From Nitrosomonas europaea (GTDB taxonomy: Bacteria > Pseudomonadota > Gammaproteobacteria > Burkholderiales > Nitrosomonadaceae), in the NCBI RefSeq assembly GCF_900167395.1, contig NZ_FUWK01000009.1, positions 39,666 to 71,665 of the forward strand: 32,000 bases of DNA. Direction: 5' to 3'. The notes beneath the pieces were generated by a model, which made no database searches, had not been told where the DNA came from, and saw only the letters and a list, made by a program, of their open reading frames with translations. The first letter of the stretch is position 1; each line of letters starts with the position of its first letter. The position numbers were made by a program, and so were the translations under genes. This document shows, in pieces, positions 11,845 through 22,946 of this stretch.

Positions 11845-14800
11845 TCACTTCGACCATGAATTCGACAACACTTCCGCTTGCTGTAGCACCAATTCCACTG
11901 CCTCCAGCTGCTTGTCGGGCGGGTACTTCCATTTCTGCAAGGTGCGCCGCACCAGAATCCGCAGCTTGGCGCGAACACTCTCACGCACCTGCCAATCCAC
12001 CGTGGTGCTGTTGCGCAGTTTTTCGGTAATCTCGACGGCGATTTTCTTGAGGGTGTCGTCTCCCAGCTCCCGCACGGCGCTTTCGTTGTTGGCCAGTGCA
12101 TCATAGAAAGCAATTTCATCGGGATTCAGCCCCAGCGCGGCTTCGCGTTCAAGCGCCGCCTGGAAGTCCTTCGCCATCTGGATCAGTTCCTCGATGATCT
12201 GCGCCGTCTCCACCGCCCGGTTGTGGTATTTGCGCAGGGTTTCCAGCAGGCGGTCGCCGTACTTCTTCTCCTGCACCACGTTGTTGCGTGCGCGCGCCTT
12301 GATTTCGTCGCTCAGCAGTTTTTCCAGAAGCTCTACCGCCAGGTTGCGGTTCTTCATCTGTCGCACATCTTCCAGGAATTCTTCCGACAACAGCCCGATG
12401 TTGGGCTTGTCCAGACCCGCCAGCGCGAAGATATCCGCCACCCCGTCAGCGACGATGGCGTTGTCCAGAATCTGCTTGAGCGCGCTGTTCTTATCTGCGT
12501 CGGAACGCTTGCGGTCCACCGTGGTGAACTTGACGATGGCGGCCTTGACGGCGGCGAAGAAGGCAATCTCCGTACGCAAGGCAGCAGTTTCATCCAACGT
12601 GCTGCACAGGGAAAATGCCTTGCTCACGGCCAGCATGGCATCGAGGAAGCGCTGCTTGCCGTCCTTCAGCCCCAGGATATGGTTGGCTACCGGCACCAGC
12701 AGCTTCATTGCATCGGTCTCGAACCCGCGGTAGTCGAAGCCGTGCATCAGCCCACGCACGATGTCCAGCTTCTCCAGCAGGACTGCCAGAGCTTCGGCCG
12801 CGTTGTGCGTCGGGTCGCCCTTGCCCTTGGATTCGGTGTAGGTCTTGAGCGCCGCCTTCAGCTCGTTGGCGATGCCGATGTAATCCACCACCAGCCCGCC
12901 GGGCTTGTTGCGGAATACCCGGTTGACGCGGGCAATAGCTTGCATCAGGTTGTGGCCCTTCATGGGCTTGTCCACATACATCGTGTGGCAGCAGGGCGCG
13001 TCGAAGCCGGTCAGCCACATATCGCGCACGATCACCAGCTTCAACGGGTCCGCCGGGTCCTTGAAGCGCTTTTCCAGGAGTTTTTTGACCTGCTGGCTGT
13101 ACAGGTGAGGCTGCAGCAAGGGCTTGTCCGCTGCCGAGCCGGTCATCACTACCTTGATTGCGCCCTTCTCCGGGTCGGCATCGTGCCAGTCCGGGCGCAG
13201 GGCGACGGTGGCGTTGTACAGCTCGGCGCAAATGTCCCGGCTCATGCACACGATCATCACCTTGCCTTCCAGAGTGGCTGTGCGCGTCTCGAAGTGCTGC
13301 ACCAGGTCGGCAGCCACCTGTTCCAGACGCGGCTGCGCGCCGACTAGCTTGGTCAGCGCAGCCCAATCGCTCTTGGTCTTCTCGCGGGCGGTGATGTCTT
13401 CCTCGTCCTCGATGACCTCATCTACCTGGGCATTGAGTGCGTCGATCTCGGCCTGGTTCACGTCCAGCTTGGCTAGGCGGCTTTCGTAGAAGATCGGTAC
13501 CGTGGCGCCATCGTCCACCGCGTCCTGAATGTCGTAGATGCTGACGTAATCGCCGAACACCGCCCGCGTGTCTTTGTCTTCCAGGGCGATGGGGGTGCCG
13601 GTGAAGCCGATGAAGGTGGCGTTGGCCAGCGCGTCGCGCATGTGCTTGGCGTAGCCAAATACGTACTTGCCGGTCTTGGTATCCAGTCGCCCTTTCATGC
13701 CGTACTGGCTGCGGTGCGCCTCGTCGGAAATCACCACGATATTGCTGCGATCCGACAGCAGCGGGTGCTGTTCTTCGTCGTCCAGCAAGGCGAACTTCTG
13801 CACCGTGGTGAAGATGATGCCGCCCGCCTCACGCGAAGCCAGTATTTCGCGCAGCTCCTCGCGGCTGCCGGCCTGCACTGGCGTTTGACGGAGCAAGTCT
13901 TCGGCGGCGCAAAAGGTGGCGAACAACTGCCCGTCCAGATCGTTGCGATCGGTCACCACCACCAGGGTGGGGTTCTTCATCTCCGGCTGCTGCAACAGCT
14001 TGCCCGCGTAGCAGGCCATAGTGATGCTCTTGCCCGAGCCTTGCGTATGCCACACCACGCCAGCCTTGCGGCTGCCGGGCTGCACTTCCTTACCATAGGT
14101 GGCGCGCGGCTCCTGCACTTCCAACAAACCTTTGTTCGGGTTGCTGGCGGCGATCACCGTGGCTTTCACCGCCTCGCGCACCGCATGGAACTGGTGATAG
14201 CCCGCGATCTTCTTGATGATCTGATCGGCATCCTGCTCGAACAGAACGAAGTGGCGCACATAGTCGAGAAACAGCGCCGGCTCGAAGAAGCCACGCACCA
14301 GCGTTTCCAGCTCGAATTCCAGCAGCGGCCGGTCGTCCTCGTTGGCAATCGCCCGCCAGGGCTGCATGCGCTCCTGATTGGCCGTGAGCGAACCCAACCG
14401 CGCCGTGAAGCCATCGCTGACCACCACCGCCACGTTGGTGTTGAACAGGTCGCCAATCTCTTCCTTGTAGGTCTGTATCTGGTTCAAGGCATCCCAGATG
14501 TCGGTCTGCTCGTTGGCCGGGTTCTTCAGCTCGATCACCACCAGCGGCAGGCCGTTGACGAAGGCCACCAGATCGGGGCGGCGCGGCTGGCGGGTAGCCC
14601 GGACGGTGAACTGGCTGACCAGCAGGAAGTCGTTGTTGCGCGGGTTGGCAAAGTCGATCAGGTTGACCAGATCGCTGCGCTTTTCATCACCCACGGAAAA
14701 CTCTACGGGGATACCGGACAGCAGCAGCCGATGCACACGGCGATTGCGGGCAATCAACAACGGCTCGCCCACCGTCAACAACTCGTGCGCGGCCTGCTCC

Positions 14801-14994
14801 AGCGCGGCGGCGGGGATGTGCGGGTTGATGCGTGCCAGTGCGGCCAGCAGGTGTTCTCGCAGCACCACTTGGCGGTAGTCGGTGCGGGCGGGCTGGTCGC
14901 CATCGGGGGCGATCTCCGGGCCGTTGGCATGCGGCCAGCCCAGCTCGGCAAACCAGCCAACGGCTGTATCTTCCAGTTTTTGTTCGGTGATCAT
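11845..14994 (-). CDS. hsdR: Type I restriction enzyme, R (endonuclease/translocase) subunit
   Basis: 1049 aa. HSDR_N-like N-terminus. SF2 helicase motifs GSGKS (Walker A), VISDEAHRSQYG (DEAH) and FTGTPI. C-terminal helical domain typical of HsdR. The start overlaps the upstream stop as ATGA (14991-14994). Confidence 0.92.
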   Translation of the reverse strand: MITEQKLEDTAVGWFAELGWPHANGPEIAPDGDQPARTDYRQVVLREHLLAALARINPHIPAAALEQAAHELLTVGEPLLIARNRRVHRLLLSGIPVEFSVGDEKRSDLVNLIDFANPRNNDFLLVSQFTVRATRQPRRPDLVAFVNGLPLVVIELKNPANEQTDIWDALNQIQTYKEEIGDLFNTNVAVVVSDGFTARLGSLTANQERMQPWRAIANEDDRPLLEFELETLVRGFFEPALFLDYVRHFVLFEQDADQIIKKIAGYHQFHAVREAVKATVIAASNPNKGLLEVQEPRATYGKEVQPGSRKAGVVWHTQGSGKSITMACYAGKLLQQPEMKNPTLVVVTDRNDLDGQLFATFCAAEDLLRQTPVQAGSREELREILASREAGGIIFTTVQKFALLDDEEQHPLLSDRSNIVVISDEAHRSQYGMKGRLDTKTGKYVFGYAKHMRDALANATFIGFTGTPIALEDKDTRAVFGDYVSIYDIQDAVDDGATVPIFYESRLAKLDVNQAEIDALNAQVDEVIEDEEDITAREKTKSDWAALTKLVGAQPRLEQVAADLVQHFETRTATLEGKVMIVCMSRDICAELYNATVALRPDWHDADPEKGAIKVVMTGSAADKPLLQPHLYSQQVKKLLEKRFKDPADPLKLVIVRDMWLTGFDAPCCHTMYVDKPMKGHNLMQAIARVNRVFRNKPGGLVVDYIGIANELKAALKTYTESKGKGDPTHNAAEALAVLLEKLDIVRGLMHGFDYRGFETDAMKLLVPVANHILGLKDGKQRFLDAMLAVSKAFSLCSTLDETAALRTEIAFFAAVKAAIVKFTTVDRKRSDADKNSALKQILDNAIVADGVADIFALAGLDKPNIGLLSEEFLEDVRQMKNRNLAVELLEKLLSDEIKARARNNVVQEKKYGDRLLETLRKYHNRAVETAQIIEELIQMAKDFQAALEREAALGLNPDEIAFYDALANNESAVRELGDDTLKKIAVEITEKLRNSTTVDWQVRESVRAKLRILVRRTLQKWKYPPDKQLEAVELVLQQAEVLSNSWSK

Positions 14995-16484
14995 TCCCCC
15001 ACCTCCCAGTGACCGCCCTTGTTGGGGCCGATGCGGCGCAAGCGTTTTTGCGCCTTGAGTTTGGCCAGCTGCTTTTCAATCGCTCGGGGCGTGAGTTGCA
15101 GACGCCGGGCCAGTGCCGAGGCGGTCAGCGAAGGCTCTTCGCGCAGCAGATGAAGGATCTTTTTGCCCGTTTCTTCCGAACTTTCTTCCGAACTTTCTTC
15201 CGAACTTTCGGAAGCCAAAGTCGCCCCCCGCCCCTTCGCCCAGAACATCTCCAGCACCGAATGCTCGTGCGGCTCATAGGATTCGCGCAGATGCAATTCG
15301 TGGCCCAGGTCACGCCAGCCATGCACGATGCGGGACATGCCCGAACCCGCACGCTCGCCCAGGCCAATCATCAGGAACATTTGCTGCATGGTGCGGTTGC
15401 GGCAGTCGCTCATGCCGCCTTGCAACGCCTGCTGCGCAGGCACCCGCAAGCCGCCGGGGTTGCGCAGCACAAAGCCCGCGGGCTCCTTGACCACCAGCAC
15501 GGAGATGCGGCCCGTGTAGTCCGCATGCACCAGCGTGTTCACCAACGCCTCGCGCAGCGCCTTGTGCGTGGGCGTATCGTCCTGGCGAATATCGCCCTTG
15601 AGCACGAACGGCACCTTGATGTCGGCCGTCAGCTTGCCCACGACGCGGCGGTAGAAGTCGAACACATTGCCTGACCACGTGCCGTCGGGCACGATGCGAT
15701 CCAGCCATTGCACCGTCGTGGCATAGTCTGCCGGGCGCTCCTGATAGTCCAGAAAGCACAGCGGCACGGCCTCGGTGATCGACGACCACTGCCCGAACAT
15801 CAGCAGGCCCGCCAGCGTCAGCCCGGCTTCGCCTGTCTCGCGGTGTTGCCGCCAGCCACCGATCTGCCGCAAGAACGCCTGATCTGCCAGCGCATTCCAC
15901 GGGTGGGAGGGGTCGCGATTGGCAAACAGTTGACGGTACGCGCGCAGGCTTTCCAGGTGCAGGTCATCCAGGCCGTAGCCGGGCAGGATGCGCTCATCCC
16001 GGCTGTCTTCCACCTGCTCGGCCAGCATGCGTTTGACGTCTTCGTCCGGCAAGGGCCGGTCACCCTCATGCAGACGGCGGTAGGTATGGCCGCCCAACGG
16101 ATTGCCCCTCAGGTACACGGGCCGCTGCTGACGCCGCGCTCGCGGAATCTCCACCACCAGCAGCGTCTTGCCCTCTACCGGCCAGGCCCGCACATCCTCA
16201 TCCCGCAGCAGATTGACGCTGACCTTCTGGCGGTTGTTCAGGTGGTTGAACAACTCGGTGCGCAGCTTGTCCGGGTTTTCAATGCCCGCCACTTCGAACT
16301 GCCCCTTGCGCTCACGCACGCCCAGAATCACGATGCCGCCATCGGTATTGGCCATCGCGCTGTAGGTGGGCCAGAAATCATCCGGCAACGCACCCTTGCC
16401 ATCCCGGCCCTGGGCGAGCTTGCACTCCAGCGAGACGGATTCACGCAGCAGGGAAAGATCGTCCAGCGCGGTAAATTCGATCAT
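14991..16484 (-). CDS. AlbA_2 (Schlafen-like 'divergent AAA') + HATPase_c_4 (RecG-C-like GHKL) + C-terminal winged-HTH protein, embedded in the RM operon. Function unknown.
   Basis: 497 aa. N-terminal LRESVSLECK motif (the E..E.K pattern of AlbA_2). Central ALREALVNTLVHADY ... NPGGL ... RNRTM ... GLGERAGSG block, typical of HATPase_c_4 proteins. The C-terminal segment ILHLLREEPSLTASALARRLQLTPRAIEKQLAKLK is HTH-like. ATGA overlaps link it to both hsdS (16481-16484) and hsdR (14991-14994). Confidence 0.7.
   Translation of the reverse strand: MIEFTALDDLSLLRESVSLECKLAQGRDGKGALPDDFWPTYSAMANTDGGIVILGVRERKGQFEVAGIENPDKLRTELFNHLNNRQKVSVNLLRDEDVRAWPVEGKTLLVVEIPRARRQQRPVYLRGNPLGGHTYRRLHEGDRPLPDEDVKRMLAEQVEDSRDERILPGYGLDDLHLESLRAYRQLFANRDPSHPWNALADQAFLRQIGGWRQHRETGEAGLTLAGLLMFGQWSSITEAVPLCFLDYQERPADYATTVQWLDRIVPDGTWSGNVFDFYRRVVGKLTADIKVPFVLKGDIRQDDTPTHKALREALVNTLVHADYTGRISVLVVKEPAGFVLRNPGGLRVPAQQALQGGMSDCRNRTMQQMFLMIGLGERAGSGMSRIVHGWRDLGHELHLRESYEPHEHSVLEMFWAKGRGATLASESSEESSEESSEETGKKILHLLREEPSLTASALARRLQLTPRAIEKQLAKLKAQKRLRRIGPNKGGHWEVGE
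15171..15214. repeat. 12-bp perfect tandem repeat x3 (ttcttccgaact), ending in an 8-bp inverted repeat (cttccgaa-ct-ttcggaag)
   Basis: Read directly. Units lie at 15171-15182, 15183-15194 and 15195-15206. They encode the (SSEE)n linker SESSEESSEESSEE between the GHKL-like domain and the HTH of the AlbA_2 protein. Confidence 0.9.
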
Positions 16485-17821
16485 GCGGTCGCCGCCTCGG
16501 CAGAGGTGTTGTCGACGGACAGCTCGCCGGAGAGGAGTTTTGGGAGGAGGGTGTCGCGGAGTTCGGCCAGCGATTGCCCTGTCGTTTCGTTTGCTTGCAT
16601 TGTCTTCCTAATCTGCGCAACCAGCCCATCGAAAGCATTCAAAACCGGCGTGGATGGTTTAACCAACTCCAGTCGGTACACGTTCTCCCGATTCAAGCCG
16701 GGAACGGCAGCATCGGTATTCATTTTGTTCAACCCAAGTGTTTGCATGGCATAGAAGCAGTACGTCATCGGCACAGCTTTTGGTTTGACGTAAAAGGTTG
16801 TGTCGATCGGGTAAAACGGATCGTCTTCCCAGTACAAACTGCCAACTGTTCCTTTGCGGCCAACAATGATCGCTCCATGCGGTACCAATGCTTCATTGTG
16901 GCAGCCGGTGATGCCGCCAGAACCGTAAACAGGAACAGCGCCTTCTTGGCGGTCGGTTGATTTGAGAGCTTTGCCGTATGCCAATTCAATCAAATCACCG
17001 ACGCGCTTTACTTGCCACCCCTTCGGAATCGCCCCCAACTCCGACTCTTGCATGGTATCGGGGAACAGGGCGGCGGTGGCGGCGAGTTGGTCGTGGTGCT
17101 CGCGGGGCATCTGGTCGAGCTCAAGGTCGGTCTTGCCGCTGATGGCGCGCATGGCGGCGCGCAGCGGGTCTTGGCCTTGTTCGATGGCGGCGATCCTGGC
17201 CTTGACCGGGTCGAAATCGACAAACCAGGATTTGAAGACGGCTTGCGCCATGGCTTCGAGGGTTTGGTTGATGCGGCGATTCGCGCGAATCTTGACATCA
17301 AGTGCCTTGATGTTTCGCACGACAACTTGCTGCTCTTCGATTGAGGGAACGGGAACTTCGATTGTTTTCAGGTATGACGAGGGACGTGCGATTGATGGCA
17401 CACCAACCTGGTTAGCGTTGGCAAGAAGTTTGTGCTGCCCTTCAGGACTTTTGAAATAATAGACAACAAACTCCGGAAGAATAATGCTGGTATCACAGCG
17501 TAAATAGAACTGCCGCTGCGAGATAACATATCTCTGATATTTTGAATGATTCGGAATAAACGCCACCTGCCCAATATTTCCAGCATGGGTAAAAATCACA
17601 TCCCCCCTTTGAACATTGGCATTTTTAAGAGAGTCAGCGTGTTCTTCCGTAATGAAATTGAACTCACTATCTGTTAGTTCTGCATCACGCAGGTGCTGCC
17701 CACTTATTATGGGAATACCCGTATCTGTGAATGTTTCAACTTTAATTGATGAGCCAAACGGCCCCATTGCAACCTTCAGGGCAATTTCTTCAACTCGTTT
17801 GTAGGGCCACTTACCAGCCAT
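16481..17821 (-). CDS. hsdS: Type I restriction-modification system, S (specificity) subunit
   Basis: Two target-recognition domains are separated by a conserved central helix ([23 protein letters not shown]) and followed by a C-terminal conserved helix ([17 protein letters not shown]). ATG at 17821 ([10 protein letters not shown]) is preferred. It overlaps the hsdM stop by 11 nt. Confidence 0.9.
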
Positions 17822-19526
17822 AGCCCAACCCCGCCAAATTCTTCCTGATCTCCGTCTCCAGCCTCGCACTCTCCGCGAACTGTTCCGCCAGTTGCGCGGT
17901 CAGGCGCTGCATCTTGTCGGCAAAAGGTTCTCCGTCTTCTTCCTGCTCAGCCGTGCCCACATAGCGCCCCGGTGTTAGCACATGCTCATGCTTGCGCACT
18001 TCCTCCAGTGAGGCGGATTTGCAGAAGCCGGGGACATCCTCGTACCCATCGCCCTGCTGCCAGGCATGGAAGGTGTCGGCGATTTTCTGGATGTCGTCCA
18101 CTGTGAAATCGCGCAGCACGCGATCCTTCATATAGCCCATCTGACGGGCGTCGATGAACAGAAATTCGCCGCGCCGGTCGCGCTTCTTCTTGTCCAGCGC
18201 AAAGCCGTTCTGCTTGTCGCGGGTCAGGAACCAGATGCAGGCCGGAATCTGGGTGTTGGTGAACAACTGGCCGGGCAGCGCGACCATGCACTCCACGTAG
18301 TCGTCCTCGGTCAGCCGCTTGCGGATTTCACCTTCGCTGTTGGTGTTGCTGCTCATGGAGCCGTTGGCCAGCAGCAGTGCCATGCTGCCGGTGGGCGCCA
18401 GGTGCCAGAGCATGTGCTGCAACCAGGCGAAGTTGGCGTTGCCTTGCGGTGGTGTACCGGCGATCCAGCGCGGGTCGTTGGCCAGCTTTTCGTTCCACCA
18501 TTCCTTCATGTTGAAGGGCGGGTTGGCCATCACGAAGTCGGCGCGCAGGTCCGGGTGCAGGTCGTTGAGCAGGGTGTCGGCCGGGCCGCTGCCGAAGTTG
18601 AAGTCGATTCCACGGATAGCCATGTTCATCGCAGCCAGCCGCCAGGTGGTGGGGTTGCTTTCCTGCCCGTAAACGCTGATCTGCCCACTCTTGCCGTTGG
18701 CCGCTTTGCCGCCGTGCTGTCCGATGAACTCCTCGCTCTGCACGAAGAAACCGCCGGAGCCCATGGCCGGGTCATACACGCGGCCCTTGAAGGGCTGGAG
18801 CATTTCAACGATCAGGGTGACGATGCTCTTGGGCGTGTAGTACTGCCCGCCCTTCTTGCCTTCGGCCAGGGCGAACTGGCCGAGGAAGTATTCGTAGACG
18901 TGGCCGAGGATGTCCCTGGATTGCAGGCTGAGCGGCTGGCCCTTGTAGGTCTTGGCCGCGAAGTCGGTATCAGAGAACAGGGCGATGAGTTCGCCCAGCT
19001 TGCTGGAGTCGAGCTGCACGCGGGCGAAGTCCTTGTTTAGCACGTTCTTCAGCCGGATATTCTCCCGTTCGATAGCTTCCATGGCGTTGTCGATCAGCCA
19101 GCCGACCGAACGCATTTCCTCGGGTTCGTCCTTGCCGGGTTTGTTCCAGGGCAGCGCCGCCTTGGGTGGCAGTTGCGCGCAATCGCGCAGGGTTTGCCAG
19201 CGGGCTTCCACAGGGACCCAGAACACGTTCTTCTCAGTGTAGTAGTCGCGGACTTCGAGCTCGGCGGCGATGTTGTCCTCATACTCCGGCGTGCCCGCGC
19301 CGCCGTATTCTTCCGGATCCATGTAGTAGTCGTGCTGAGGGTTGGTGAACTGTTCGCGCAGTTCCCGCTGCCGCTCCTCGAAGGCATCGGATACATACTT
19401 GAGGAAGATCAGCCCGAGCACGACATGCTTGTACACGGCGGCGTCGAGGTTGGAGCGCAGCTTGTCGGCGGCGGTCCAGAGCTTCTTTTCCAGATCGTTG
19501 AAGAACTGTTGTTCTATGGGTTTCAT
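17811..19526 (-). CDS. hsdM: Type I restriction-modification system, M (N6-adenine DNA methyltransferase) subunit
   Basis: 571 aa. HsdM_N-type N-terminus ([38 protein letters not shown]). SAM motif DPAMGSGGF and catalytic motif NPPF (VMANPPFN). Confidence 0.93.
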
Positions 19527-19687: not shown

Positions 19688-21070
19688 TTATTTTCCGATG
19701 CAGAAACTGGAAAAAATCTCGCCCAGCAGATCATCGCTGGTAAATTCACCGGTGATGGAGGATAGGGCTTGTTGCGCGAGGCGTAATTCTTCGGCCAGTA
19801 TTTCCAGCTGATCTGCACGATGCAGCCAGGCGGCTGCTCTTTCCAGCAGTTCTTTTGCCTGTATCAATGCTTGCAGATGGCGCTGGCGAGCCATGTAGGC
19901 GCCTTCTCCGGCAATGTTGGCCTGCCAGCCGGCAGTTTTGAGCAGTGCAGCCCGTAGCAGTTCTATTCCTTCCCCATTTATGGCTGAAAGGTAAATGGTT
20001 GGCCCGGATGTGTTTTCTTCCAGGCGAGGAGGCTGAGCTGACAGATCGATTTTGTTGTGGACGGTCAGTACCGGCAACCGTTCCGGCAGGCGCGTCAGCA
20101 CTGAGCGATCTTCTTCTGTTACACCGTGGCGGCTGTCCACCAGTAACAATACCAGATCAGCCTGTTCGATTGCGGCGTAGGTGCGGGCAATTCCGTGTTG
20201 CTCAACAATGTCGCTGGTTTCTCTCAGCCCTGCGGTATCAATCAGATGCAGTGGAATTCCTTCGATTTCGATCGATTGCCGGACAGTGTCTCTTGTCGTA
20301 CCAGGAATATCAGTGACAATGGCAACCTCGTCTCCGGCAAGACGGTTGAGCAGGCTGGATTTGCCTACGTTGGGCTGACCAGCCAGTACGACTTTGATAC
20401 CTTCCTGCAGCAGATTGCCCTGGCGAGATGCAACCAGTACCTGTTCCAGTTTGGCTCGGATCGTCGCCAGTTGTTCTGCGGCATGGGCTGACTGGAGAAA
20501 GTCGATTTCTTCTTCCGGAAAATCGAGTGTTGCTTCGACCAGTACACGCAGATCGATTAGTGCACTGACGAGCTGGTGAATCGTTGATGAGAATTCTCCG
20601 TGCAACGAGCGTACTGCACAGCGCGCGGCATTGGCAGTGCTGGCTGCGATCAGATCTGCGACGCCTTCGGCCTGTGCGAGATCGAGTTTATCGTTGAGGA
20701 AGGCCCGTAGTGTAAATTCACCCGGTTCCGCCAGGCGGGCACCCAGTTGAAGGCAGCGATCCAGTAGCAGATTCATGACGGCGGGGCCGCCATGCCCTTG
20801 CAGTTCCAGCACCTCTTCGCCGGTGTAGGAATGGGGAGAAGGAAAGTAAAGTGCGATTCCCTGATCGATGATCTGACTATTCTGATCAAGGAAGCTGAAT
20901 AACCCGGCATGACGCGGATCAGGAAGCTTGCCCAGGATTCCCCGGGCAAGCGATTCCAGATTTGTTCCGGAAATCCGGACTATACCTATGCCGCCACGAC
21001 CGGGGGGCGTGGCAATTGCTGCGATGGTGTCATTACTTGTCACCAGAGAGGGCAGGGCTTTTTGATCCAA
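19688..21070 (-). CDS. mnmE: tRNA uridine-5-carboxymethylaminomethyl(34) synthesis GTPase MnmE (TrmE/ThdF)
   Basis: 460 aa. N-terminus [23 protein letters not shown] domain with [17 protein letters not shown] and DTAG. Canonical C-terminal CIGK. Confidence 0.93.
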
Positions 21071-21101: not shown

Positions 21102-22946
21102 CTATTTCTTTCTCGTTCTTTTGTACATTTTCCTTGGATTATTGGCAGGAGTTTGAGGCTGTTTAGGGCTATCAGCCGGACTGTTGGCAGTTGTTTCAGG
21201 ATTTTCTGAACTATTTACCTGTTTACTGACGGGTGGTTCAGGCGTGTCCTTGCTGGGGGCAGTCCCGTACATTTTTGTAATCTTCCATTGCTGTGCAATC
21301 GACAGAATATTGTTGACCAGCGAATACAGAACCAGGCCGGCCGGGAAGAAGAAGAAAATGGCGCTGAAGGCAACAGGCATAATTTGCATTATTTTTGCCT
21401 GGAGCGGATCTGTCGGCGTCGGGTTAAGCTTGGTCTGCACAAACATGGAAATACCCATCAGCAGCGGCAGCATGTAGAAGGGATCTGGAGAGGATAAGTC
21501 ATCGATCCAGAGCGCCAAAGGAGCATAACGCAGCTCTACTGCTGCAAGAATAGTCCAGTACAGAGCGATGAAAACCGGAATTTGCACCAATATAGGAAAA
21601 CATCCTCCCATCGGGTTGATTTTTTCCTCTTTGTAGAATTCCATCATGGCCTGGTGCATACGCTGCCGATCACCTTTATATTGATCCTGAATACGCTTCA
21701 GTTTGGGTGTTACCAGGCGCAACTTGGCCATGGATCGATAGCCGGCTGCAGATAGCGGGAAGAACAGAAGTTTGACGGTCATTGTCAACAGGATGATTGC
21801 CACCCCCCAATTGTCCGTCCATGAATGATAGAACGATAGCAGGCGGAATAACGGTTTGGCGATCACTGTCAGCCAGCCGTAATCAACTGTGAGATCCAGA
21901 CCGGGAGCCAGTCCTTCCAGATTATCCTGCTCTTCGGGGCCCGCGTAAAATGGCATGGTGGTGGCTGCAATTTCACCAGGCGCGATGACACCAGCGGGTA
22001 CAATCACCCCGGCACTGTAGAGATTGTCACTCTGCCGTTTGGCAAAAAATTCACGTGGTGTCTGCTGTTGTGGCAGCCAGGCAGTCAGGAAATAATGTTC
22101 CAGCATGGCAATCCAGCCATTGTTCGCATTGGCCGGATAATCTGCCTTGTTCTTGTCCAGATCGGAAAAAGGAATTTTCTGGTATTTACCTTCCTCAGTG
22201 TAAACGGCTGCCCCCAGGAATGTGGGGATCATCATGGTCTTGGCGGGTGGCGGATTACCGTCACGCAGCATCTGGAAATAGGCAAACGGGCGAACTGTGG
22301 CGTCACCTTTGTTTTCCACTTCGAAACCGACATCGATCACATAGCTGTCACGGTGGAAAGTATAGGTTTTGATGACCTGAACACCTTGGGCCTCAGGTGC
22401 CAGCAGGCGGATGACGATTTTATCCTCGCCCGAGGAGAGCTCGTAGTTGCGTATATCCGACTCTGCCCGGAAAGTTGTTTTATGGTTGGGCAGGCCTTCT
22501 CCAACCAGGCCGGATTGTGCAATATAGGTACGCGCAGCCTCGCTGTACAGCAGAGCGTAAGGTGTGTCTTTGTCTTCTGATGAAGGTTGCTGCAGCAGCT
22601 CCAGACGCCGTAAATCGCCGCCGATCGTATCGATTTCTGCAATGACCTTGTCGGTGACGACACGTATCTGTTCTCCTGATGGCAGGAGGCGTGGAGTAAC
22701 TGAGTCTCCATTACCACCGCTTGCAGGTATTCCATTTGTATCCGGGCTTGCTTGTGACGATGTCAGCTCACTGCCAGGAACAGGGAGGCTGTCGTCATTT
22801 CTGGATTGTGTCGATCCGGCTGAAGAATCAGCCTGGGTAATGGCGGGAGGATTGTTGAACTTTTCCTGCTCCTTTATCCATGCATCCCATAAAAACAGCA
22901 ATGATGTCGAAAAAATGATAAGCAGTACGATTTTTTTATTGTCCAT
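21102..22946 (-). CDS. yidC: Membrane protein insertase YidC
   Basis: 614 aa. N-terminal anchor, large periplasmic P1 domain and a C-terminal 60-kDa-IMP 5-TM core (PLFRLL...WGVAIILLT...KINPMGGCFP). Conserved position downstream of rnpA-yidD. Confidence 0.93.
   Translation of the reverse strand: MDNKKIVLLIIFSTSLLFLWDAWIKEQEKFNNPPAITQADSSAGSTQSRNDDSLPVPGSELTSSQASPDTNGIPASGGNGDSVTPRLLPSGEQIRVVTDKVIAEIDTIGGDLRRLELLQQPSSEDKDTPYALLYSEAARTYIAQSGLVGEGLPNHKTTFRAESDIRNYELSSGEDKIVIRLLAPEAQGVQVIKTYTFHRDSYVIDVGFEVENKGDATVRPFAYFQMLRDGNPPPAKTMMIPTFLGAAVYTEEGKYQKIPFSDLDKNKADYPANANNGWIAMLEHYFLTAWLPQQQTPREFFAKRQSDNLYSAGVIVPAGVIAPGEIAATTMPFYAGPEEQDNLEGLAPGLDLTVDYGWLTVIAKPLFRLLSFYHSWTDNWGVAIILLTMTVKLLFFPLSAAGYRSMAKLRLVTPKLKRIQDQYKGDRQRMHQAMMEFYKEEKINPMGGCFPILVQIPVFIALYWTILAAVELRYAPLALWIDDLSSPDPFYMLPLLMGISMFVQTKLNPTPTDPLQAKIMQIMPVAFSAIFFFFPAGLVLYSLVNNILSIAQQWKITKMYGTAPSKDTPEPPVSKQVNSSENPETTANSPADSPKQPQTPANNPRKMYKRTRKK

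What the first reader, a model, noticed from the sequence alone, without database searches (positions are those of the whole stretch)
14991..16484. Schlafen-like AlbA_2/GHKL/wHTH gene translationally coupled between hsdS and hsdR, in the PrrC-equivalent slot
What the sequence shows:
- All four genes are chained by overlaps: hsdM/hsdS by 11 nt, hsdS/X by ATGA and X/hsdR by ATGA. X is therefore an integral, stoichiometrically coupled part of the RM operon and not a passenger.
- X combines an AlbA_2 domain (ESVSLECK motif), a HATPase_c_4 GHKL-like module and a C-terminal winged HTH.

Established background:
- In the E. coli prr locus, the latent anticodon nuclease PrrC sits in exactly this position (hsdM-hsdS-prrC-hsdR). 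The Type I enzyme holds it inactive until phage anti-restriction triggers it.
- The AlbA_2 fold is the core of eukaryotic Schlafen proteins, several of which are tRNA/rRNA endoribonucleases.

Inference: X could be a second-layer effector or sensor guarded by, or guarding, the Type I complex. Possibilities include RNA or tRNA targeting, or transcriptional control through the HTH. It is probably not the 'RecG-like helicase/transcriptional regulator' it is usually annotated as. As far as I know, this architecture has no experimentally defined function.
Basis: partly seen in the sequence, partly recalled or inferred. Interest (0 to 1): 0.75.

Follow-up and report, generated by a model that had tools for sequence, protein, structure and literature searches.

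The report
Schlafen-ATPase RNase gene inside Type I restriction operon
The gene between hsdS and hsdR encodes a bacterial Schlafen-type RNase fused to an ATP switch and a DNA-binding domain, a protein class already noted in 2026 papers as riding inside restriction and BREX operons as a probable second line of phage defence, so this is a clean but ordinary example whose trigger is still unknown.

Summary
On the minus strand, hsdM, hsdS, X and hsdR are chained by overlaps of 11, 4 (ATGA) and 4 (ATGA) nt. X (497 aa) has a Schlafen/AlbA_2 domain, a GHKL-type ATPase and a C-terminal winged HTH. The Schlafen catalytic residues (E15-x4-E20-x-K22, plus E58) and the GHKL Mg/ATP residues (E312, N316) are present and conserved in homologues.

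X belongs to a known class: "pSlfn HisKinase-HTH", also called the "Schlatpase" supradomain plus HTH. Three 2026 papers report this class as tightly linked to RM, BREX and type I CRISPR loci. None has tested an RM-embedded member.

Among the 80 closest genomic relatives, 33 of 61 with enough downstream sequence have hsdR downstream on the same strand. In 26 of 34 inspected junctions the hsdR start overlaps or lies within 20 nt.

X is not an obligate Hsd subunit:
- A 94%-identical copy stands alone inside an ABC-transporter operon.
- Genomic context is scattered across the X similarity relationships.
- X co-varies with HsdR/HsdM far less (r about 0.5) than they do with each other (r = 0.88).

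Best reading: a latent, ATP-switched tRNase cassette serving as a backup effector. A PrrC-like guard role remains possible but unproven.

The parts
17811..19526 (-). hsdM, Type I methyltransferase subunit (571 aa)
   Evidence: Pfam HsdM_N + N6_Mtase, E 5e-110. PADLOC MTase_I, E 9e-184.
16481..17821 (-). hsdS, specificity subunit (446 aa from the ATG at 17821; the longest ORF extends to 17869)
   Evidence: Pfam Methylase_S, two stretches. The PADLOC Specificity_I model starts at residue 17 of the longest ORF. Public gene calls give 446 aa.
17811..17821 (-). 11-nt hsdM/hsdS overlap (ATGGCTGGTAA)
   Evidence: Read directly from the sequence. Same overlap in public gene calls.
16481..16484 (-). 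ATGA overlap: hsdS stop / X start
14991..16484 (-). X: Schlafen-GHKL ATPase-wHTH protein (497 aa), i.e. a 'Schlatpase'+HTH, pSlfn HisKinase-HTH class
   Evidence: Pfam. More than 5,200 homologues. Whole-chain fold match to 3LMM, E 2e-19. Class defined in the literature.
16050..16442 (-). Schlafen/AlbA_2 nuclease domain (about aa 15-145)
   Evidence: PF04326, E 7e-10. PDB 2KYY, E 1e-10. Domain model hits SLFN13/5/14/12/11.
16419..16442 (-). Catalytic motif E15-SVSL-E20-C-K22 (Ex4ExK). The third acidic residue, E58, is encoded at 16311-16313.
   Evidence: Invariant in 22 homologues. Aligns with SLFN13 E205/E210/K212 and D248, and with the corresponding ESxxxExK motif of SLFN14. Motif defined.
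15240..15677 (-). GHKL (Bergerat-fold) ATP-binding domain, about aa 270-415. N-box E312...N316 is encoded at 15537-15551. Also carries RNPGG and GERAGSG glycine motifs.
   Evidence: HATPase_c_4, 24.7 bits. Foldseek hits to CpxA/ZraS/PDK/BCKDK kinase domains. Residues invariant in homologues. The E-x3-N spacing and position match RzAgo E314/N318, the Mg/gamma-phosphate ligands; this correspondence is inferred, since no RzAgo sequence was aligned.
15170..15209 (-). In-frame 12-nt tandem repeat (3.3 copies) encoding the (SSEE)x3 linker
   Evidence: the repeat finder family D3.
14994..15173 (-). C-terminal winged helix-turn-helix (about aa 438-497)
   Evidence: HTH_11 and HTH_24 above cutoff. Model shows three helices plus a beta-hairpin; fold hits to MarR/ZitR and Zalpha.
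14991..14994 (-). ATGA overlap: X stop / hsdR start, with GGAGG upstream
   Evidence: Tight X-hsdR junctions in 26 of 34 related loci.
11845..14994 (-). hsdR, restriction/translocase subunit (1049 aa)
   Evidence: Pfam HSDR_N, SWI2_SNF2, T1R_D3-like, T1RH-like_C. TIGR00348, E 1.5e-181.

Best explanation
X is a prokaryotic Schlafen effector of the 'Schlatpase + wHTH' class: a Schlafen RNase domain, a GHKL ATPase and a winged HTH.

Proposed mechanism, by analogy with characterised relatives:
- The protein is made in a latent state together with the Type I enzyme.
- ATP binding to the GHKL domain drives dimer/tetramer assembly, which pairs the single-lobe Schlafen domains into an active RNase.
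- The active RNase cuts tRNA (possibly also rRNA) and shuts down translation. This aborts infections that escape restriction.
- The wHTH and the variable linker most likely supply the nucleic-acid-related cue or restraint.

The gene is a self-contained cassette. It is preferentially lodged directly upstream of hsdR and translationally coupled to it, so it is co-expressed with restriction as a second layer. It does not need Hsd proteins to exist or be maintained.

Shown here: the domain composition, intact catalytic and ATP-binding residues, operon coupling, strong enrichment next to hsdR, and autonomy of the cassette.
Inferred: RNase activity, the ATP switch, the defence role and the trigger.
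For: Family and active sites:
- Pfam SLFN_AlbA_2, HTH_11/HTH_24 and HATPase_c_4.
- E15/E20/K22, E58, E312/N316 and the glycine motifs are conserved in homologues of 56-74% identity.
- The profile alignment puts E15/E20/E58 on SLFN13 E205/E210/D248.
- Fold searches give 3LMM over the whole chain, histidine-kinase ATP domains, and only Schlafens after the two bacterial entries for the N-terminal domain.

Mechanistic precedent:
- Ex4(E/D)xK pSlfns cleave tRNA and defend against phage.
- In RzAgo, ATP binding to the same PF13749 domain drives tetramerisation that reconstitutes the Schlafen nuclease.
- Cash cleaves tRNA.

Context:
- 33 of 61 close relatives have hsdR downstream.
- 26 of 34 X-hsdR junctions overlap or lie within 20 nt.
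- The same order occurs on a Pseudoalteromonas plasmid.
- The same architecture sits inside BREX-3, next to a type IIG enzyme and in a Wadjet locus.
- The literature calls this architecture a backup effector in BREX and links it to RM.

Autonomy:
- L006 (stand-alone) and L008 (RM-embedded) are 94% identical, and the stand-alone copy carries a remnant of the hsdR 5' end.
- Context is only weakly clustered among related X sequences: nearest-neighbour concordance 39/61 against 30.7 expected.
- Mantel r is 0.46 for X-HsdR and 0.55 for X-HsdM, against 0.88 for HsdR-HsdM.
Against: - No experiment exists for any RM-embedded member.
- The HisKinase-type pSlfn fusions tested in E. coli gave no protection against the phage panel used.
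- PADLOC has no model for this protein, only partial hits to pAgo-associated proteins.
- The HATPase_c_4 score in X itself is just under Pfam's cutoff.
- The alignments to eukaryotic Schlafens are weak (E 0.06-0.09, TM 0.3-0.4) and the models are of moderate confidence (pLDDT 68-73).
- The very tight coupling to hsdR across phyla could reflect a functional dependence that sequence analysis cannot see.
Confidence: 0.6

Rival explanations
1. PrrC-like guard. X is held inactive by physical association with the HsdM2S or HsdR2M2S complex. It is unleashed when a phage anti-restriction protein (Ocr, ArdA or Stp-like) disables the enzyme, or when HsdR stalls or cleaves, and then cuts tRNA.
For: - X sits in the same slot as prrC (hsdM-hsdS-X-hsdR; the prr gene order is from established knowledge; embedding of prrC in a Type IC locus is).
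- Translational coupling at both junctions and a conserved tight X-hsdR junction.
- Published fusions of the Schlatpase module to HsdS, and of Schlafen domains to RM methyltransferases, suggest physical proximity.
- An FRG protein in the same slot carries an HsdR C-terminal domain, showing that cargo in this slot can borrow Hsd docking modules.
- The Cash authors speculate that such homologues sense structures generated by DNA cleavage.
Against: - X has no HsdR- or HsdM-like docking domain.
- A 94%-identical copy is maintained with no hsd genes nearby.
- About 45% of close relatives are stand-alone or sit with type IIG, Wadjet or BREX systems, which would need a partner-independent trigger.
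- Co-variation with Hsd proteins is weak.
- X has no homology to PrrC: no ABC ATPase or HEPN hit.
Confidence: 0.2
2. Transcriptional controller. X uses its wHTH to repress or time expression of the hsd operon, like a C-protein. The Schlafen/GHKL part would be a ligand-sensing or vestigial module.
For: - A confident C-terminal wHTH of the MarR/ArsR/AsnC type.
- Databases annotate relatives as HTH transcriptional regulators.
Against: - The catalytic Schlafen residues and ATP-binding residues are invariant, which is not expected for a vestigial module.
- The gene sits mid-operon rather than upstream.
- No palindromic operator lies upstream of hsdM in the window, and none is shared among 27 related loci.
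- The promoter scan found nothing above background.
- The same protein occurs in unrelated operons and as a lone gene.
- Long-form relatives replace or duplicate the HTH region.
Confidence: 0.07
3. Pure hitch-hiker. X is an independent defence or selfish cassette that lands in the hsdS-hsdR gap because that gap is a permissive hotspot. There is no functional interplay with restriction beyond shared transcription.
For: - The slot also holds FRG, SIR2, Fic, AAA_15/21, reverse transcriptase, DUF4268 and a second Schlafen gene.
- Precedent: TgvAB is embedded in a Type I operon but works alone.
- Precise cassette boundaries and stand-alone copies.
- Moderate co-variation only.
Against: - X is nearly always the gene immediately before hsdR, even when other cargo is present, and it overlaps or abuts the hsdR start.
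- It recurs specifically with DNA-targeting or methylation-based systems (Type I, IIG, BREX, Wadjet) rather than random neighbours (literature).
Confidence: 0.25

Closest known systems
pSlfn 'HisKinase-HTH' class (Perez Taboada et al., Nat Microbiol 2026, PMC13056530), also called Schlatpase + C-terminal HTH (Kuzmenko et al., bioRxiv 10.64898/2026.05.29.728809)
   Same: - Same three-domain order: Schlafen, then GHKL (PF13749), then HTH.
- Same Ex4(E/D)xK motif.
- It is the second most common pSlfn architecture (19.2%), and most Schlatpases are small proteins with or without an HTH.
   Different: Nothing architectural. This class has not been characterised biochemically, and the HisKinase fusions tested showed no defence in E. 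coli.
Schlafen-minimal histidine kinase-wHTH proteins embedded in BREX loci (NAR 2026, PMC12839542), and Schlafen+ATPase+DNA-binding clusters linked to RM, BREX and type I CRISPR (Nat Commun 2026, PMC13462974)
   Same: - Same architecture.
- Same behaviour of sitting inside a methylation/nuclease defence operon.
- Interpreted there as a backup suicidal RNase.
- I saw a BREX-3 example myself.
   Different: Here the host system is a Type I RM, with the gene specifically between hsdS and hsdR and overlapping both. The papers give no junction or co-variation analysis for this arrangement.
PrrC / EcoprrI (E. coli prr locus)
   Same: - Gene embedded between hsdS and hsdR of a Type I operon.
- The predicted output, tRNA cleavage as a second line of defence, is the same kind.
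   Different: - Unrelated protein: PrrC is an ABC-type NTPase plus a HEPN-like anticodon nuclease, whereas X is Schlafen + GHKL + wHTH.
- Latency through binding to the RM enzyme, and activation by T4 Stp, are shown for PrrC and untested for X.
RzAgo SLFN-pAgo (Runella zeae)
   Same: - Shares the Schlatpase supradomain.
- The PADLOC pAgo model aligns to X residues 41-347.
- The ATP ligands E314/N318 correspond in spacing and position to X E312/N316 (inferred, no RzAgo sequence was aligned).
   Different: [quoted passage not shown] X has only a wHTH after the ATPase.
DIP2311 (PDB 3LMM) and the RecG-related N-terminal domain (PDB 2KYY)
   Same: These are the best structural matches: 3LMM over the whole chain (E 2e-19) and 2KYY for the Schlafen domain.
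   Different: Both are structural-genomics entries with no assigned function, at 16-30% identity.
Other Type I-embedded cargo (TgvAB, Campylobacter rlo genes)
   Same: They occupy the same intra-operon slot, and TgvAB works independently of the RM genes.
   Different: The proteins are unrelated (GmrSD-like DNA restriction).

Membership tests
Prokaryotic Schlafen nucleases (pSlfn) | SLFN_AlbA_2 (PF04326) domain | tested here: met
   Residues 16-144, E 7.4e-10, 39.8 bits against a cutoff of 25.3. The domain model hits SLFN13/5/14/12/11 after two bacterial entries.
Prokaryotic Schlafen nucleases (pSlfn) | Catalytic Ex4(E/D)xK motif plus a third acidic residue | tested here: met
   E15-SVSL-E20-C-K22 is invariant in 22 homologues. 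E58 aligns with SLFN13 D248 and is E or D in the homologues aligned. The alignments to eukaryotic Schlafens are weak (E 0.06-0.09).
Prokaryotic Schlafen nucleases (pSlfn) | tRNA cleavage and phage defence | not testable with these tools
   Needs biochemistry and phage assays. The HisKinase-type fusions tested by others gave no defence in their panel.
Schlatpase supradomain (Schlafen + GHKL ATPase) | PF13749 GHKL domain following the Schlafen domain, with the E...N Mg/ATP motif | tested here: met
   HATPase_c_4 scores 24.7 bits in X, just below the cutoff of 26, and 29-32 bits in close relatives. Foldseek hits histidine-kinase and PDK ATP domains. E312/N316 are invariant and match RzAgo E314/N318 in spacing and position.
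Schlatpase supradomain (Schlafen + GHKL ATPase) | ATP-driven tetramerisation that activates the nuclease | not testable with these tools
   Shown only for RzAgo. No multimer prediction or assay is available here.
PrrC-type anticodon nuclease guarding a Type I enzyme | Gene located between hsdS and hsdR in one operon | tested here: met
   Order is hsdM-hsdS-X-hsdR with overlaps.
PrrC-type anticodon nuclease guarding a Type I enzyme | ABC-type NTPase N-domain and HEPN-like nuclease C-domain (homology to PrrC/RloC) | tested here: not met
   No AAA/ABC or HEPN family hit in Pfam, NCBIfam or PADLOC.
PrrC-type anticodon nuclease guarding a Type I enzyme | Latency through binding to the RM complex and activation by anti-restriction | not testable with these tools
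   The indirect evidence is mixed: stand-alone near-identical copies against published HsdS fusions.
RM controller (C) protein | Small Xre-type HTH protein upstream of the genes it controls, with a C-box operator | tested here: not met
   X is 497 aa, carries a wHTH and lies mid-operon. No operator-like palindrome lies upstream of hsdM and none is conserved across 27 loci.
RecG-like helicase (common database label) | Superfamily 2 helicase core (DEAD/Helicase_C) | tested here: not met
   No helicase domain in X. The label derives from the name of PF13749.

The most novel reading that the evidence does not exclude
X is a Schlafen-based functional analogue of PrrC. It would be a latent tRNase that reads the state of the Type I enzyme, either its inhibition by anti-restriction proteins or DNA structures produced by HsdR translocation and cleavage, through its wHTH and GHKL switch. 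It would then convert failed or ongoing restriction into translational shutdown. This would be convergent with the ssDNA-triggered activation of human SLFN11.
Probability: 0.2. Interest if true: 0.7.

Novelty: new member of a known kind. Interest (0 to 1): 0.4.

Why it matters
Schlafen RNases link bacterial and human antiviral immunity. The Schlafen-GHKL-HTH form is among the most abundant bacterial versions, yet none has a known trigger.

A compact four-gene operon with X tightly coupled to hsdR is a convenient natural test bed for one question: do these proteins act as independent backup effectors, or as sensors of restriction activity or of its inhibition?

For this window on its own, the result mainly corrects the annotation. 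X is neither a RecG-like helicase nor a plain regulator. It belongs to a class already described in the 2026 literature.

Tried and rejected
- Operator search. I looked for palindromes upstream of hsdM in the window and in 26 related loci. There is none in the window and nothing shared.
- Promoter/terminator scan of the operon. Nothing above shuffled background, and no internal promoter or terminator separates X.
- PADLOC and NCBIfam. Neither has a dedicated model for X, only partial pAgo-associated and weak HTH hits.
- Flanking direct repeats that would mark an integration site. None found.
- Exact-sequence cluster look-up to name the organism. The identical protein is on a 2.81-Mb NCBI chromosome, CM135170.1.
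- HsdR family. It is only distantly related to EcoR124I (E 1e-28 over the motor domain), so similarity to the Type IC EcoprrI system cannot be claimed.
- Makarova et al. 2011 on defence islands, which I recall discussing COG2865. The paper is not held, so I do not cite it.
- Supplementary tables of the pSlfn paper. They are not held.
- 'X as an obligate RM subunit'. Rejected because of the 94%-identical stand-alone copy and the weak co-variation.
Full report
**1.

On the minus strand the window carries yidC (21102-22946) and mnmE (19688-21070). After a 160-nt gap come hsdM (17811-19526), hsdS (16481-17821), X (14991-16484) and hsdR (11845-14994).

Reading the junctions directly:
- The hsdM stop lies inside ATGGCTGGTAA, an 11-nt overlap with the hsdS start at 17821.
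- hsdS/X share ATGA at 16481-16484.
- X/hsdR share ATGA at 14991-14994, with GGAGG upstream.

Public gene calls on five independent contigs that encode the identical X protein give the same three overlaps. The Hsd proteins are full length with all expected domains. A promoter/terminator scan finds nothing above shuffled background inside the operon.

**2. What X is.**

Pfam gives four relevant hits:
- SLFN_AlbA_2, residues 16-144, E 7e-10.
- HTH_11 and HTH_24, residues 438-478, both above cutoff.
- HATPase_c_4, residues 340-395, 24.7 bits, just under the cutoff of 26.

Sequence search of the PDB finds 2KYY for the N-terminal domain and 3LMM for the C-terminal two thirds.

An AlphaFold2 model (pLDDT 73) matches 3LMM over the whole chain (E 2e-19). 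Its middle domain matches histidine-kinase and PDK-type ATP-binding domains. Its tail matches MarR/ZitR and Zalpha winged helices.

A separate model of residues 1-165 (pLDDT 68) hits 2KYY and 3LMM, and after those only Schlafens: SLFN13, SLFN5, SLFN14, SLFN12 and SLFN11. TM-scores are modest at 0.3-0.4.

**3. Active sites are intact.**

In 22 homologues of 56-74% identity the following are invariant (that alignment's numbering is one lower than the numbering used here):
- E15, E20 and K22.
- The GHKL N-box E312 and N316.
- The RNPG and GERAGSG glycine motifs.

E58 is nearly invariant in that set (E or D) and invariant in the 8-sequence N-terminal alignment.

A profile of the N-terminal domain aligns E15/E20/K22 with rat SLFN13 E205/E210/K212 and E58 with D248. 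It also aligns with the corresponding ESxxxExK motif of SLFN14. These E-values are weak (0.06-0.09), but they agree with the Pfam assignment.

In the SLFN-pAgo RzAgo, E314 and N318 of the same PF13749 domain coordinate Mg and the gamma-phosphate. ATP binding there drives tetramerisation that rebuilds the two-lobed Schlafen nuclease. X E312/N316 have the same E-x3-N spacing and nearly the same position; no RzAgo sequence was aligned here.

X has no helicase domain, so the RecG label is only a legacy of the Pfam family name.

**4. The class is already described.**

- Perez Taboada et al. (Nat Microbiol 2026) list Slfn-HisKinase-HTH as 19.2% of 5,930 prokaryotic Schlafens. Their HisKinase fusions gave no protection against their E. 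coli phage panel. DUF262 and Ig-like fusions did protect, and one of these cleaves tRNA.
- Kuzmenko et al. (bioRxiv 2026) name the Slfn-GHKL pair 'Schlatpase'. They note that most Schlatpases are small proteins with or without a C-terminal HTH. They also show a Schlatpase fused to HsdS, or standing alone, in an RM operon.
- The BREX survey (NAR 2026) reports Schlafen-minimal histidine kinase-wHTH proteins inside BREX loci in at least 1,017 taxa and calls them backup suicidal effectors.
- The Cash paper (Nat Commun 2026) reports Schlafen+ATPase+DNA-binding clusters 'tightly associated' with BREX, RM and type I CRISPR, with the activation mechanism unknown.
- Embedding of unrelated defence genes in Type I operons is also established, for example PrrC and TgvAB.

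**5. Neighbourhood evidence gathered here.**

X has more than 5,200 database relatives. A scan of one genome per species returned 561 relatives, and I analysed the best 80 (47-76% identity, many phyla).

Searching those loci with the window's Hsd proteins:
- 33 of 61 loci with at least 1.5 kb downstream have hsdR downstream on the same strand, 32 of them within 300 nt.
- 23 of 48 loci with long flanks on both sides have the full hsdS...X...hsdR order.

I placed the hsdR start by its conserved N-terminus (M-I/L-T/N-E-x-Q-L-E). On that basis 26 of 34 junctions overlap or lie within 20 nt. A Pseudoalteromonas plasmid shows the same four-gene order.

When extra genes lie between hsdS and X they are other defence-type cargo: FRG fused to an HsdR C-terminal domain, SIR2, Fic, AAA_15/21, reverse transcriptase, DUF4268 and a second Schlafen-GHKL gene. 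X stays next to hsdR.

**6. X is nevertheless an autonomous cassette.**

35 of the 80 loci show no hsd gene. Their neighbours are heterogeneous:
- Integrases.
- A type IIG Eco57I/MmeI-like enzyme overlapping X by 4 nt.
- A Wadjet JetC locus.
- Fic.
- Plain housekeeping genes such as rpoN/rlmL, an ABC-transporter operon, and molybdopterin genes.

Plasmid copies are stand-alone in Burkholderia, L. iners and S. aureus, and sit inside BREX-3 in Roseicitreum.

Context is scattered among related X sequences: nearest-neighbour concordance is 39/61 against 30.7 expected by chance (p about 0.04). The closest discordant pair, L006 (stand-alone) and L008 (RM-embedded), is 94% identical in protein.

At the DNA level, homology between these two begins one base before the X start codon. 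It ends about 30 nt past the X stop, so the stand-alone copy still carries the first ten or so codons of hsdR. This indicates escape from an RM operon.

Across 22 complete operons, pairwise identities correlate as follows (Mantel test):

| Pair | r |
|---|---|
| X vs HsdR | 0.46 |
| X vs HsdM | 0.55 |
| HsdR vs HsdM | 0.88 |

So 'integral, stoichiometric, not a passenger' is not supported, although the coupling to hsdR is real and conserved.

**7. Mechanism.**

The best-supported reading is a latent, ATP-switched Schlafen RNase, most probably a tRNase. It is co-expressed with the Type I enzyme as a second-line, abortive-infection-type effector. The wHTH and linker would provide a nucleic-acid-related cue or restraint.

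A PrrC-like guard mechanism, meaning latency by binding the Hsd complex and release by anti-restriction or by restriction activity, remains possible. The published HsdS fusions favour it. The stand-alone near-identical copies and the variety of partner systems weigh against it, because those would require a partner-independent trigger.

A pure regulator role is unlikely. The enzymatic residues are invariant, no operator was found, and the gene occurs in unrelated operons.

**8. Setting in this genome.**

The hsdM-hsdS-X-hsdR block has 60-64% G+C against 48-53% in the flanks, and lies between mnmE and an EamA transporter gene. This is consistent with horizontal acquisition.

Two strains of the same species share identical flanks and an identical block running from mid-hsdS through X into the first roughly 900 nt of hsdR. 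They differ in hsdM (84-95% identity), in the first target-recognition domain of hsdS (51-68%) and in the 3' part of hsdR (84-96%).

**9. Verdict.**

This is a new member of a known, recently described but biochemically untested class. The remaining interest is the open question of what triggers RM-embedded Schlatpases, for which this compact operon would be a good experimental model.

Noticed in passing
window 15170-15209; X homologues in L001-L080: In-frame tandem DNA repeats in the linker are a family-wide feature, present in 74 of 80 genes. Short forms (about 500 aa) carry a 12-nt (4-aa) unit with 3-8 copies, often 100% identical to each other, just before the wHTH. Long forms (about 660 aa) carry a 21-nt (7-aa) unit with 2-7.5 copies (for example SSSLLPG). 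The unit sequence differs between homologues, but its period and position are conserved. This suggests slippage-driven variation in linker length.
   Followed up: partly
L006:7997-9534 vs L008:7997-9534: A stand-alone X lies inside an ABC-transporter (LolD/MacB-like) operon and is 90% identical in DNA to an RM-embedded X. Homology starts one base before the ATG and ends about 30 nt after the stop, so the stand-alone copy keeps the first ten or so codons of hsdR. The cassette boundaries are precise, and the ATGA overlap with the new upstream gene is recreated.
   Followed up: partly
L004:6651-7943, L007:6716-7987 (also L060 and one further locus): A roughly 430-aa protein lies between hsdS and X. 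It combines an FRG domain with the last part of the HsdR C-terminal domain (T1RH-like_C). This looks like cargo that has borrowed an HsdR docking module.
   Followed up: no
window 11845-19526: The whole hsd block has 60-64% G+C (X is highest, hsdS lowest at about 53-55%) against 48-53% in the flanks. It lies between mnmE and an EamA transporter gene. No flanking direct repeats or integrase were found.
   Followed up: partly
L081 vs L082 (same species as the window): The operon shows mosaic allelic variation. hsdM is 84-95% identical, the first hsdS target-recognition domain 51-68%, and the 3' two thirds of hsdR 84-96%. The second half of hsdS, all of X and the first roughly 900 nt of hsdR are identical.
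   Followed up: partly
P0017 (one Logan assembly, 46.5-kb contig): A 391-aa variant is 100% identical to X up to residue about 343 (RNP|GG) and then frameshifted. It could be a natural knock-out or a sequencing error.
   Followed up: no
L005:2-4350; L017:6321-12882; L091:1783-10622: Close or distant X homologues are also coupled to other DNA-targeting defences: a type IIG Eco57I/MmeI-like enzyme (4-nt overlap), a Wadjet JetC locus next to a DUF1016/YhcG nuclease, and BREX-3 (between the BrxC-like DUF6079 gene and the methyltransferase).
   Followed up: partly
P0097; L016:7962-10007; L044; L058; L077: The long-form relatives (about 650-690 aa) also sit between hsdS and hsdR. After the heptad-repeat linker they have an extra C-terminal region with a weak second winged-helix hit (Fic-like_C).
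   Followed up: no
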